Virus record (IMG/VR): IMGVR_UViG_2858656345_000001
DNA length: 64,000 nucleotides
Reading direction: 5' to 3' (one strand)
Origin: an uncultured virus (IMG/VR IMGVR_UViG_2858656345_000001)
Lineage: Duplodnaviria > Heunggongvirae > Uroviricota > Caudoviricetes
Under the pieces are notes generated by a model. It searched no databases. It worked only from the letters and a program-made list of their open reading frames with translations, and was not told the DNA's origin. Position numbers and translations under genes: made by a program. Positions 234 to 37,477 of the stretch are shown here, one piece after another. Each line of letters opens with the position of its first letter. The stretch's first letter is position 1.

Positions 234-321
<88 letters not shown>

Positions 322-32694: not shown

Positions 32695-33017
32695 AGCCGT
32701 GAATGCAACTGCCCCCTGTCAAACTTAAGCACCTTTCCCCTGATGCGTACCCCGGAGCCATCCTCGCGCTCTGCCACAAACACGCTTGTTCCGTCCTCCA
32801 CCACCAAAGCGCCCTTGGGCATTTGGATAAGTGACGAGAACTTGCGAAATGTGCCATCTGCGGTCTGTACCTCCGAGCCTCTGCCGTCGGTTTCCTCCCT
32901 GCACTTAGACAGGAGTACGGGCTGCTGGGCGTTTTCTGTCCAATAGCCGTCCTCGTCCTGCACGGATTCCCCCGTTGATTGGAGCGCAAACAGGTAATGA
33001 GGGTACTGTATGATCAT
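32685..33017 (-). CDS. Head-closure/stopper protein
   Basis: QDEDGYW motif; synteny. Confidence 0.6.
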   Translation of the reverse strand: MIIQYPHYLFALQSTGESVQDEDGYWTENAQQPVLLSKCREETDGRGSEVQTADGTFRKFSSLIQMPKGALVVEDGTSVFVAEREDGSGVRIRGKVLKFDRGQLHSRLWV

Positions 33018-33018
33018 A

Positions 33019-33333
33019 TCACCAAATGTTCGACCGGTTGCGGATTTTAGGGCGACTAAACAATACATTCTCGCGCCCTAATTCGGCACAAAGCGAAGCG
33101 TAGAAGAATTTCACGGCGTCCATGTTCCACGAGATCGAATAACCGCCCTCTGAAACGTTCTGCACAGCTCCTTTGAGCACTACGGAGAAACGTTTGTAGA
33201 TAGCTTCGTCGCACCTCAAGACATCGACCTCCGCGCCTCCGTCAATCCCTGCTTTCAGCAGGATGACCTCGACGTCGTCCTCCGAGACCCCAAGCCCTGA
33301 TAGGGTTGTGAGTAAGTATTGTTTGTTCGTCAT
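33019..33333 (-). CDS. Head-tail adaptor protein
   Basis: VSEGGYSISW motif; first gene after capsid. Confidence 0.7.
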   Translation of the reverse strand: MTNKQYLLTTLSGLGVSEDDVEVILLKAGIDGGAEVDVLRCDEAIYKRFSVVLKGAVQNVSEGGYSISWNMDAVKFFYASLCAELGRENVLFSRPKIRNRSNIW

Positions 33334-33359
33334 GCCGCCCTGTGTGTGTGATTGAGCTT

Positions 33360-33520
33360 GTGAAAAAGACTGTCCCCGGATTGAGACTTACCTACGAGCA
33401 GTGAGGTACCGGGTCTTTCGTTCGCATTGCCCTGTCTGCTTGCAAACATCAAGGGTTGCCGCTCGTGTCATGAGAGGTCGGCGATGCACCGCCATCTGAC
33501 CGACAGTCTTTTTTGTCACA
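33360..33520 (-). ncRNA. Candidate structured RNA with multibranch fold and 8-bp pseudoknot
   Basis: 12-bp closing stem, three internal hairpins, loop CUGCUCGU complementary to ACGAGCGG; stem non-Watson-Crick pairs are G-U on the minus strand. Confidence 0.6.
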
Positions 33521-33531
33521 GTTTGCGTCTC

Positions 33532-34635
33532 TTAATTCTTAGTCCACGAGGTAGCATTCACTTGCATCAAGACAGAGCGACCGGCCAAGTTCCACGCCGG
33601 GAACAGGTTGCTGATACCCTCTGTTACCTCCTTGACGGGGCTTTCCTCCGAATACTTCTTGATAAGCGTATGCCCATGCATCACCTTCTCGGCAACGCTG
33701 CCTGCGATAGGCTTGGCATCAATAGGACGCTTCCAATATGTGTTTCCGAGCACTTTGCTCTCTGAGAACAGGATAACGTCGTCCTCGAACGGGTTCGACG
33801 TAGTCCTCGTGCCGTCGGCAAGCTCAATTGTGATGTCTTGATCGATCACGATGATTTGAAGCCCCTTGTACAGCTCTTTCTTTCTCGACAGGTAGGCATT
33901 CACCGTCTGCAAGTCAGGCGTGTCGGTGGCTCCGGTGATATTCTCAATCAGCGTCGCGCACCTCTTGATAACCTCCTCCTGTGAAGCGAACTTGGCAAAC
34001 GTTTCAACGTTCATGAACATGAACTTGTAGTTTGCGCCGATAGCTTTACCTTTCTTCAACGCTTCCGGAATATCCTTGCTCAAAGGCTTACCGGCTGTTC
34101 CGCTGGTATACGAAGTCGCAACGCCCATCTTCTGCTCGCTCGGAATCATGTAGTCCACGTCGTACTCAGTTACAACAGCAGCGTTGTTTGAGTTTGTGAA
34201 CTTCACCTTGCCGAGTGAAATCTGCTTGAGTGCGATCCACTCGGCACGTGCAGCAACGCCTTTCCAGCAGAACTCCGTATCCTCCGCCCAAAATTCGATG
34301 AGGGCTTTCAGGTCGGGGTTTCCGGAAGACATCGCAACCATGATGTCATACTCGGTTAGTTCGTCCTCGTTCTTTTCGCGCGAGATCGAAATCTTCGGAA
34401 TATCCCCTTGGATTCGACTGATTGCCTCGCGCATCTTGCGCGGAATGGTTGCACCACGAGAAACAAGGTCGGCAGCAATCTTCAATCCGGCTTGCGCTTC
34501 GAGCATCTTCCACGTCAAGAAGTTGGTTTCTTTCAGTGGGAACAGCGTCGGGTAGTAGTAATCTTTCAGGTCGTAGGTGTGGATCACGGCGGCCATGTCC
34601 TTTTCGTTCAACCCTACCATTAACGTCTTTTGCAT
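33532..34635 (-). CDS. Major capsid protein
   Basis: 367 aa following scaffold and decoration genes; lambda-E-like size and context. Confidence 0.85.
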   Translation of the reverse strand: MQKTLMVGLNEKDMAAVIHTYDLKDYYYPTLFPLKETNFLTWKMLEAQAGLKIAADLVSRGATIPRKMREAISRIQGDIPKISISREKNEDELTEYDIMVAMSSGNPDLKALIEFWAEDTEFCWKGVAARAEWIALKQISLGKVKFTNSNNAAVVTEYDVDYMIPSEQKMGVATSYTSGTAGKPLSKDIPEALKKGKAIGANYKFMFMNVETFAKFASQEEVIKRCATLIENITGATDTPDLQTVNAYLSRKKELYKGLQIIVIDQDITIELADGTRTTSNPFEDDVILFSESKVLGNTYWKRPIDAKPIAGSVAEKVMHGHTLIKKYSEESPVKEVTEGISNLFPAWNLAGRSVLMQVNATSWTKN

Positions 34636-37276: not shown

Positions 37277-37477
37277 CAAGGAAATCACAGGGAAATAATA
37301 TGCAATGGCTTATCAGGGCAACCGCATCAAAAATTTCGAGAAAATACAAGTTGCTAATTTTCAAATGATTGCATTTTGGAGCTATGGTTGATAATCAGGT
37401 ACTTACATTTTGATGCGGTTGCCCTGATGGCTTATAATAAAGTTTTGCCAGCTCAAAAACATTGCCTACCTTTGCAG

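What the first reader, a model, noticed from the sequence alone, without database searches (positions are those of the whole stretch)
33360..33520. Pseudoknotted structured RNA candidate directly after the major capsid gene
Seen (minus strand): closing stem AAAAAGACUGUC/GACAGUCUUUUU encloses hairpin GGUC..GGCGG/UCGCC..GACC, hairpin CCC..UGUUUG/CAGACA..GGG, and CCCGG..UACCU[CACUGCUCGU]AGGUA..CCGGG. That last loop pairs 8 bp with the single-stranded ACGAGCGG (+ strand 33394-33401 vs 33459-33466). Three non-Watson-Crick positions are G-U on the minus strand but A-C on the plus strand, supporting an RNA fold in the late transcript. It is far more elaborate than a terminator and matches no ribozyme or riboswitch I recognise. 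Inference: an abundant late ncRNA, processing element or ribozyme, e.g. setting capsid:adaptor stoichiometry, acting in assembly, or serving as an anti-defence decoy.
Basis: partly seen in the sequence, partly recalled or inferred. Interest (0 to 1): 0.8.

Follow-up and report, generated by a model that had tools for sequence, protein, structure and literature searches.

The report
New pseudoknotted phage RNA family
The stretch after the capsid gene of this Porphyromonas gingivalis prophage encodes a real, elaborately folded RNA that belongs to a large, uncatalogued, phage-specific RNA family whose members probably pair up through a self-complementary loop.

Summary
Window 33363-33513 (minus strand) lies between the major capsid and adaptor genes of Porphyromonas phage phage005. 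It folds as a 12-bp closing stem (P1) around a hairpin (P2), a second hairpin (P3) and a third (P4) whose loop forms a pseudoknot.

The evidence is comparative, not thermodynamic (single-sequence z = -1.64). A short pattern from the element retrieved 56 viral and 118 metagenome stretches. Of these, 56 of 56 and 114 of 118 match a covariance model of the ~105-nt core. On 96 distinct sequences, 95.6% of cells pair and 14 of 23 pairs change on both sides, including three pseudoknot pairs. P1 covaries in 9 of 11 pairs among seven capsid-context copies.

Rfam 15 has no match. No ORF is conserved. Most members sit in phage tRNA arrays, co-oriented with the tRNAs. In 76 of 80 related phages the capsid-adaptor gap holds only a simple hairpin.

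New here: the P3 loop carries a perfect 6-nt palindrome at one fixed place in 49 of 63 distinct versions, with 14 different hexamers. That is the signature of a kissing-loop homodimer.

The function is unknown. My best reading is a stable, processed, dimerising non-coding RNA whose P1 and U-run double as the capsid terminator.

The parts
33363..33513 (-). Whole element (151 nt): P1-closed, pseudoknotted structured RNA in the gap between the major capsid and adaptor genes
   Evidence: Sequence; inverted repeat I9; covariance-model hit on the core at 33368-33471, 85.4 bits, E 5.7e-14
33502..33513 (-). P1 5' arm (AAAAAGACUGUC)
   Evidence: Pairs with 33363-33374. Among 7 capsid-context homologues, 9 of 11 P1 pairs change on both sides
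33363..33374 (-). P1 3' arm (GACAGUCUUUUU). Its U-run makes the stem terminator-like
   Evidence: A U-run after P1 is seen in roughly half of the P1-closed members, judged by eye from the listing
33476..33501 (-). P2 hairpin (GGUC..GGCG[GUGCAU]CGCC..GACC), an optional peripheral hairpin with a UGCA apex
   Evidence: Outer stem 96.4% and inner stem 85.7% paired in 7 sequences, each with one pair that changes on both sides. Absent from most family members
33460..33466 (-). Pseudoknot 5' strand (ACGAGC, plus G33460 as a G-U)
   Evidence: Pairs with 33394-33400. Three pseudoknot pairs covary, and only 1 unpaired cell occurs in the 6 firm pairs across 96 sequences
33424..33459 (-). P3: base helix GCA/UGC (33457-33459 with 33424-33426), CCC/GGG (33453-33455 with 33430-33432), internal loop and apical loop
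   Evidence: Base helix found by mutual information and 99.3% paired. CC/GG pairs are 100% paired with covariation
33440..33445 (-). Palindromic hexamer UUGCAA in the P3 apical loop: candidate kissing-loop dimerisation site
   Evidence: A perfect 6-nt palindrome at the same offset in 48-49 of 63 distinct P3 interiors, with 14 different hexamers. Shuffles give 6.9 +/- 2.4 at that offset
33414..33423 (-). Conserved junction (GAACGA...) between P3 and P4
   Evidence: Largely conserved columns: the central A of GAACGA is invariant and the others are kept in 80% or more of the 100 sequences
33375..33413 (-). P4: outer stem CCCGG/CCGGG, inner stem UACCU/AGGUA, loop CACU+GCUCGU (pseudoknot 3' strand 33394-33399), conserved bulge AAG.UCAA
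   Evidence: All 6 outer-stem pairs covary. The inner stem and loop were fixed by the search pattern, so they give no independent evidence
33532..34635 (-). Major capsid protein gene, directly upstream
   Evidence: phrog_29 major head protein, E 3.6e-42; record annotation
33019..33333 (-). Adaptor protein gene. Its start is 29 nt after P1
   Evidence: phrog_7935; annotated as adaptor in PP754928

Best explanation
Shown. The element is one member of a large, uncatalogued family of structured RNAs found almost only in phage sequence. The family core is about 105 nt. It consists of a 5' strand (UGAC-ACGNNC) that forms a 6-7-bp pseudoknot with the loop of hairpin P4, a hairpin P3 on a GCA/UGC base helix, and conserved junctions. 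The periphery is modular. Either a variable closing stem P1 is present, with or without a hairpin P2 and often followed by a U-run, or a 3' hairpin is present and the core is flanked by tRNAs or tRNA look-alikes.

Inferred. The RNA is made as part of highly expressed phage transcripts. In this phage that is the late capsid message; in most other phages it is a tRNA array. Its ends are set by the flanking signals: P1 plus the U-run here, and tRNA processing sites elsewhere. It then acts as a free-standing non-coding RNA. Two copies join through the self-complementary hexamer in the P3 loop, a kissing-loop homodimer of the kind recalled for retroviral dimerisation hairpins. The dimer probably binds or sequesters a protein or RNA partner that is still unknown.

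In this prophage, P1 with its U-run also takes the place of the plain hairpin that sister phages carry after the capsid gene. It therefore probably also ends or protects the capsid message.
For: Family and fold:
- A 22-nt pattern taken from the element found 56 viral stretches. Fewer than about 3 are expected by chance (my estimate from the collection size). All 56 match the covariance model.
Of these, 114 match the model.
- On 96 distinct cores, 95.6% of cells pair against 81.8% in shuffles. Fourteen of 23 pairs change on both sides, and 0 of 500 shuffles reach the covariation score. Sliding the partners by 1-3 columns drops pairing to 20-41%.
- The pseudoknot and the GCA/UGC helix were not part of the model that made the alignment, yet they are 92.6% and 99.3% paired and both covary.
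- P1 is supported by 9 of 11 pairs among 7 capsid-context copies.

RNA on this strand:
- G-U pairs occur on the minus strand only.
- Twenty-six loci were scanned for tRNAs. In the 21 that hold tRNAs, all 57 tRNA/tmRNA genes lie on the motif's strand.

Free-standing module:
- It occurs directly after tRNA 3' ends, before tRNA look-alikes, or closed by its own P1.
- No protein family recurs beside it across lineages. The largest cluster is seen in 8 loci.
- On the capsid tree its presence is patchy, with sister phages that have and lack it and at least 3 changes (quick tree).

Dimer: the palindrome evidence.

Not coding.

Not in Rfam.
Against: - There is no expression or end-mapping data. The single RNA run found covers only the adaptor gene.
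- Folding energy of the single sequence is not significant.
- Members were retrieved with a pattern that fixes the inner P4 stem and part of the loop. Invariance there is by construction, and more divergent members are missed.
- Alignments A4 and A5 were fitted to the nested part of the model.
- Dimerisation is inferred from palindromes only. Fourteen of 63 distinct P3 interiors lack a perfect hexamer: 8 keep a CUAG core, 2 are palindromic with G-U, and 4 GC-rich members have none.
- The U-run after P1 is seen in only about half of the P1-closed members, so termination is not a family-wide property.
- The molecular partner and the biological role are unknown.
- The family may already sit unnamed in the catalogue of 10,006 candidate viral RNAs. 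The large supplementary files of that catalogue could not be searched.
Confidence: 0.6

Rival explanations
1. It is a new class of self-cleaving ribozyme that makes RNA ends. It would cut the late transcript between the capsid and adaptor genes here, and trim tRNA trailers or leaders in tRNA arrays.
For: Its size, its pseudoknot and its highly conserved junction bases are typical of small ribozymes. In many loci the core begins 1-5 nt after a tRNA 3' end. As I recall, HDV-like theta ribozymes of gut phages sit in the same way. In the capsid context it replaces a hairpin that also defines an RNA end.
Against: No known ribozyme model matches. The strand topology differs from the HDV-like nested double pseudoknot: the pseudoknot 3' strand lies inside the P4 loop, and there are no P3- or P4-type inserts (sequence). 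About half of the P1-closed members are followed by a U-run. Weinberg et al. 2017 (PMC5737381, passages read) argue that a downstream terminator is at odds with self-cleavage. A variable palindromic loop is not needed for cleavage in cis.
Confidence: 0.17
2. It acts only in cis, as an elaborate intrinsic terminator or 3'-end protector that raises capsid mRNA relative to the downstream head-tail genes.
For: P1 is a 12-bp stem that ends in UUUUU. Of 80 related phages, 76 carry a simple hairpin, often with a T-run, at exactly this junction. Several tRNA-array members are also P1-closed with a U-run (L128, L200, L218, L228, L257).
Against: A plain hairpin does that job in sister phages. That does not explain about 105 nt of conserved core, the pseudoknot or the palindromic loop. 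Members L198, L231 and L333, in the same capsid context, have no U-run after P1. Members in tRNA arrays lack P1 altogether.
Confidence: 0.13
3. It is a riboswitch-like sensor: ligand binding stabilises P1 and so tunes read-through into the downstream genes.
For: It has a complex fold with conserved junction bases and a P1 next to a U-run.
Against: Most members lie in tRNA arrays or after genes, not in 5' leaders. Many lack P1 or the U-run. No riboswitch model matches.
Confidence: 0.04
4. It is not an RNA element. It is either a small protein gene (the record annotates a 39-codon ORF here) or a miniature transposable element with terminal inverted repeats.
For: PP754928 annotates a hypothetical CDS at record 33075-33194, which overlaps the 3' half of the element. 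The 12-nt perfect inverted repeat could be read as terminal repeats. Presence among related phages is patchy.
Against: Each is interrupted by a stop or lacks a start codon in at least one of them. The 'terminal repeats' differ completely in sequence between homologues while keeping their pairing, which is the behaviour of an RNA stem. The window holds a single copy. The host genome could not be searched.
Confidence: 0.02

Closest known systems
Retroviral dimerisation initiation hairpins (HIV-1 DIS; recalled from established knowledge)
   Same: An apical loop of about 8-10 nt holds a 6-nt self-complementary sequence flanked by unpaired bases. The hexamer varies between lineages but stays palindromic. 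GUGCAC, one of the hexamers I recall from HIV-1, is also one of the 14 seen here.
   Different: Here the loop caps one arm of a pseudoknotted multi-helix RNA of DNA phages. There is no genome to dimerise or package, and dimer formation has not been tested.
Complex-fold motifs followed by terminators (drum, skipping-rope, DUF3800-I, FuFi-1; Weinberg et al. 2017, PMC5737381, passages read)
   Same: These motifs are highly conserved and have ribozyme- or riboswitch-like complexity. They are not in 5' leaders, are often followed by a Rho-independent terminator, and have unknown function.
   Different: No sequence or structure match to any of them in Rfam. Those motifs associate with particular proteins, whereas none was found here. 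Here the terminator-like stem encloses the motif instead of following it.
GOLLD and ROOL large RNAs (PMC5737381 passages; PMC12286853, search listing and abstract only)
   Same: They are found in phages and prophages, often next to tRNAs, and they self-assemble into homo-oligomers.
   Different: Those RNAs are about 580-800 nt and are in Rfam. This core is about 105 nt, and no loci matched them.
HDV-like theta ribozymes beside phage tRNAs (recalled)
   Same: A small pseudoknotted RNA placed within a few nucleotides of a phage tRNA 3' end.
   Different: The helix order differs from the nested double pseudoknot, and no HDV-family model matches. Cleavage has not been tested.
UG27 reverse-transcriptase ncRNA arrays (bioRxiv 10.64898/2026.09.22.753630, section 9 read)
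   Same: Units of about 150 nt with a basal hairpin and a pseudoknot, found in prophages of Bacteroidota.
   Different: Those units are tandem, diverse in sequence and lie beside a reverse transcriptase. This RNA is single-copy and conserved in sequence, and phage005 has no annotated reverse transcriptase among its 71 features.
Mu-gpT-DE motif downstream of Mu-like major head genes, and the stable 'species 1/2' RNAs of the T4 tRNA cluster (both recalled, not checked in a paper)
   Same: The same genomic niches: just after a major head gene, or inside a phage tRNA cluster.
   Different: No Rfam match of any kind at this locus. No sequence comparison with the T4 RNAs was made.

Membership tests
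Any Rfam 15 family (4227 models) | Covariance-model score at or near the family's gathering threshold | tested here: not met
   Window 33000-33900 at E<=10 gave only snoR117 (15.9 bits against 42) and RMST_3 (15.2 against 55). The whole window at gathering gave one tRNA only. Typical members L200 and L202 at E<=10 gave nothing on the motif. Twelve loci at gathering gave tRNAs only.
Intrinsic (Rho-independent) terminator | Stable stem-loop directly followed by a U-run | tested here: inconclusive
   P1 is 12 bp and ends in UUUUU, but it encloses 127 nt. Roughly half of the P1-closed relatives have a U-run, judged by eye from the listing. Termination was not measured.
HDV-like / theta ribozymes | Nested double pseudoknot in the order P1-P2-P3-P1'-P4-P2', with cleavage at the 5' end of P1 | tested here: not met
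   The helix order here is PK5'-P3 hairpin-P4a-P4b-PK3'-P4b'-P4a'. No HDV-family hit. Cleavage cannot be tested with these tools.
Kissing-loop dimerisation hairpin (DIS type) | Apical loop with a self-complementary hexamer that varies yet stays palindromic | tested here: met
   Forty-nine of 63 distinct P3 interiors hold a perfect hexamer, 48 of them at offset 7-12, against 6.9 +/- 2.4 (maximum 14) in 500 dinucleotide shuffles. There are 14 different hexamers.
Kissing-loop dimerisation hairpin (DIS type) | Physical dimer formation | not testable with these tools
   Needs a native gel, SEC-MALS or cryo-EM.
UG27 RT-associated ncRNA | Tandem units next to a UG27 reverse transcriptase | tested here: not met
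   There is a single copy in the window. No reverse transcriptase is among the 71 annotated genes of phage005b.
Miniature inverted-repeat transposable element | Conserved terminal inverted repeats and multiple copies | tested here: not met
   The arm sequences differ between homologues while the pairing is kept. There is one copy in the window. The host genome is not held.
Small protein-coding gene | An open frame kept among homologues | tested here: not met

The most novel reading that the evidence does not exclude
This is a new class of self-assembling phage RNA. It is a compact pseudoknotted fold that forms symmetric dimers through a freely evolving palindromic kissing loop, and possibly longer chains where P2 carries a second palindrome. 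It is planted wherever phages make abundant, end-defined RNA: after the capsid gene or inside tRNA arrays. The dimer would be the active form of a new ribozyme, or of a decoy or scaffold aimed at a host factor in translation or defence.
Probability: 0.3. Interest if true: 0.92.

Novelty: categorically new. Interest (0 to 1): 0.82.

Why it matters
New classes of RNA with this much conserved architecture are rare. In the past they have turned out to be ribozymes, riboswitches or RNA machines.

This one is abundant. It is nearly confined to phage sequence: only 5 model hits were found in one genome for each of 185,579 prokaryote species, and all 5 were on metagenome-assembled (MAG) contigs. It also carries a built-in evolutionary signal for RNA-RNA dimerisation.

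It occurs in a prophage that is known to make particles in a cultivable strain (phage005 of ATCC 49417; PMC10367356, passages read). Its expression, ends, dimer state and loss-of-function phenotype are therefore directly testable.

It also corrects the database record, which annotates a 39-codon 'hypothetical protein' across the RNA.

Tried and rejected
- **Thermodynamics alone.** The z-score of -1.64 is not convincing.
- **First search pattern.** The 15-nt pattern GGCAATGYGAACGAA gave mostly chance matches. Only 17 of the 114 loci retrieved matched the model.
- **RNA-seq.** One RNA run held a tenth of the sampled words. Its single contig covers 33058-33311, within the adaptor gene, and says nothing about the element.
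- **Own genome.** A search for further copies was not possible, because the assembly is not held.
- **Earlier scan notes.** Searching by sequence found nothing.
- **Literature by short sequence strings.** Only unrelated papers came back.
- **Catalogue supplements.** In Fremin et al. 2023 the two largest files hold no searchable text and a third was not fetched. Membership in that catalogue is therefore undetermined.
- **The P. gingivalis phage paper.** The words 'ncRNA', 'non-coding' and 'intergenic' do not occur in it.
- **Flanking proteins.** No protein family recurs beside the motif across lineages.
- **Rejected readings.**
  - Small ORF.
  - Transposable element.
  - UG27 unit.
  - HDV-like topology, judged by inspecting the helix order.
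  - A local alternative hairpin at 33372-33387 flagged by the terminator scan, because by my reading of the sequence it is not kept in L225.
- **Capsid tree.** The careful tree search did not finish. Only the quick tree was used.

Full report
**Where it is.** The window matches Porphyromonas phage phage005a/b of P. gingivalis ATCC 49417 at 100% identity over the stretch compared. The late genes run on the minus strand. The major capsid gene is at 33532-34635 (phrog_29, E 3.6e-42), and the adaptor gene is at 33019-33333. The gap between them is 198 nt. The element fills 33363-33513.

**The observation.** P1 is a perfect 12-nt inverted repeat (33502-33513 with 33363-33374, 127 nt apart). It is one of ten such repeats in the 64-kb window. 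The minimum-energy fold recovers P1 and P4. Its energy is not exceptional: z = -1.64, and 10 of 200 shuffles fold as well. The plus strand gives z = -0.28. The single sequence therefore does not prove a structure.

**Relatives of the phage.** I examined 80 IMG/VR loci that encode a capsid protein 78-100% identical to this one.
- In 76 of them the capsid-adaptor gap is only 50-72 nt. It holds a single hairpin, often followed by a T-run.
- Two more are the same phage.
- One lacks the adaptor gene.
- One, L081, has a 175-nt gap.

L081 carries a homologous element in which P1, part of P4 and three pseudoknot pairs differ from the window yet still pair. That was the first sign of real structure.

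**A large family.** The 22-nt pattern TACCTCACNNNNCGTAGGTAAG covers the inner P4 stem and loop.
- In viral contigs it found 56 stretches, where I estimate fewer than three by chance. All 56 match a covariance model (R1) built from 42 distinct cores.
Of these, 114 match the model: 54 of 54 and 60 of 64.
- In one genome for each of 185,579 prokaryote species it found only six stretches. Five match the model, and all five are on metagenome-assembled (MAG) contigs, four of them 5 kb or shorter and one of 30 kb.

The family is therefore abundant and almost confined to phage sequence. That fits what I saw around many members. I did not compare the sequences.

**The fold, tested by covariation.**
- On 96 distinct sequences (alignment A5), 95.6% of cells form standard pairs, against 81.8 +/- 0.4% in column shuffles and 20-41% when partners are slid by 1-3 columns.
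- Fourteen of 23 pairs change on both sides. No shuffle reaches the covariation score.
- The outer P4 stem covaries at all six pairs.
- The pseudoknot has three invariant and three covarying pairs, with one unpaired cell in the six firm pairs. A seventh pair is G-U in 47 of 96 sequences.
It is 99.3% paired, and all three pairs covary.
- The model that produced the alignment contained neither the pseudoknot nor this helix, so both are independently supported.
- The inner P4 stem and much of its loop were fixed by the search pattern, so they carry no independent weight.
- In the seven copies that sit between capsid and adaptor genes (window, L198, L231, L225/L081, L333, L363, L373), P1 changes on both sides at 9 of 11 pairs. 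P2 also keeps pairing.
- G-U pairs are found on the minus strand only, so the fold belongs to the RNA of the late transcript.

**Not coding, not mobile, not in Rfam.**
The 'hypothetical protein' that the GenBank record places here is therefore very likely spurious.
- The arms of P1 differ in sequence between homologues. The window holds one copy.
- Rfam 15 gives nothing for the window locus at E<=10, nothing for typical members, and only tRNAs for twelve loci and for the whole window at gathering scores.

**Context.** Two architectures appear.
- Type I is closed by a variable P1, with or without P2. By eye, in roughly half of the cases a U-run follows. The window, L225, L128, L200, L218, L228 and L257 are examples with a U-run.
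- Type II lacks P1. It has a 3' hairpin with a GAAAGA-type loop and lies in arrays of tRNAs and tRNA look-alikes. It often starts 1-5 nt after a tRNA 3' end.

Twenty-six loci were scanned with ARAGORN, and 21 hold tRNAs. All 57 tRNA/tmRNA genes in them lie on the motif's strand. No protein family recurs next to the motif across lineages.

On a quick capsid tree, presence of the element is patchy. Sister pairs with and without it are L231/L004, L198/L069 and L081/L053, and well-supported branches force at least three changes. The careful search did not finish. The element therefore behaves as a swappable module that can stand in for a plain hairpin.

**The palindromic loop.** The apical loop of P3 holds a perfect 6-nt Watson-Crick palindrome in 49 of 63 distinct P3 interiors.
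- In 48 of them it starts at the same offset (7-12).
- Dinucleotide-preserving shuffles give 6.9 +/- 2.4 at that offset (maximum 14 in 500 shuffles) and 18.3 anywhere in the loop.
- The rest of the RNA shows palindromes at a background rate, 17 of 84.
- Fourteen different hexamers occur. They include all four of the form AC-NN-GU, and UUGCAA in the window (33440-33445).
- Of the other 14 interiors, eight keep a CUAG core, two are palindromic if G-U is allowed, and four GC-rich members have none.

A six-base palindrome cannot fold on itself, and most members have no second matching loop. The simplest reading is pairing between two copies of the RNA, that is, a kissing-loop homodimer. This is an inference from sequence. 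No physical test was possible.

**What it most likely does.** Shown: a conserved, pseudoknotted RNA fold on the transcribed strand that is modular and phage-specific. Inferred: it is released or terminated as a discrete RNA from abundant transcripts, it dimerises, and it acts in trans on an unknown partner. In phage005, P1 and its U-run probably also end or protect the capsid message, taking the place of the hairpin of sister phages.

I give this 0.6. The rivals are a new self-cleaving ribozyme (0.17), a purely cis-acting terminator or stabiliser (0.13), a riboswitch (0.04), and an ORF or mobile element (0.02).

**Novelty.** No Rfam family, no paper found by four text searches and no passage of the phage005 paper describes this RNA. 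It may be listed unnamed among the 10,006 candidates of Fremin et al. 2023, whose large supplements could not be searched. The closest analogies are by behaviour only: dimerisation hairpins of retroviruses, the 'complex motifs with terminators' of Weinberg et al. 2017, GOLLD/ROOL near phage tRNAs, theta ribozymes, and UG27 ncRNA units. Membership in each was tested and not met, or could not be tested.

Noticed in passing
L197, L199, L202, L226, L236, L246 and others, directly downstream (some also upstream) of the motif: Repeated tRNA look-alikes share an acceptor stem (AGUCAGG/CCUGACU), a Leu-type D-arm and a T-arm, but carry inserts of 40-100 nt where the anticodon and variable arms should be. 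ARAGORN finds no tRNA in L199. One such unit in L202 scores 27.8 bits against the tRNA threshold of 29.
   Followed up: partly
L202, L212, L229, L248: about 130 nt after the tRNA look-alike downstream of the motif: A second conserved block of about 120 nt that looks non-coding recurs in several phages. It includes GGAGAAUCUG...CAGUGCGACCGCCGGUAA...GGGGAGAGACCCGACC. No Rfam match was found in L202 1000-1700 at E<=10.
   Followed up: partly
window 37312-37332 and 37408-37428: A perfect 21-nt inverted repeat with 75 nt between the arms, the longest in the window. It lies just past the lectin-fold gene of the prophage's opposite-strand island.
   Followed up: no
window 33330-33449 (record PP754928 33075-33194): The GenBank record annotates a 39-codon 'hypothetical protein' that overlaps the 3' half of the RNA and the adaptor start. 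The frame is not kept in homologues, so it is probably a false gene call.
   Followed up: yes
window 33484-33493 (P2 apex); L225 P2 apex: The P2 loop also ends in a self-complementary core: UGCA in the window, AUGCAU in L198 and UGUACA in L225. A second palindromic loop could allow chains and not only dimers, or a P2-P3 contact within one molecule where both loops hold UGCA.
   Followed up: partly
L228 1335-1409; L201 2583-2966: In L228 a suppressor-type tRNA (anticodon UUA) lies immediately upstream of the motif. In L201 a phage-encoded tmRNA lies in the same island. Both hint at a link between these islands and translation or recoding.
   Followed up: no
window 234-319: A tRNA-Ser (UGA) lies near the window start and is followed by a 14-nt perfect hairpin at 324-361. 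It is probably the prophage attachment region.
   Followed up: no
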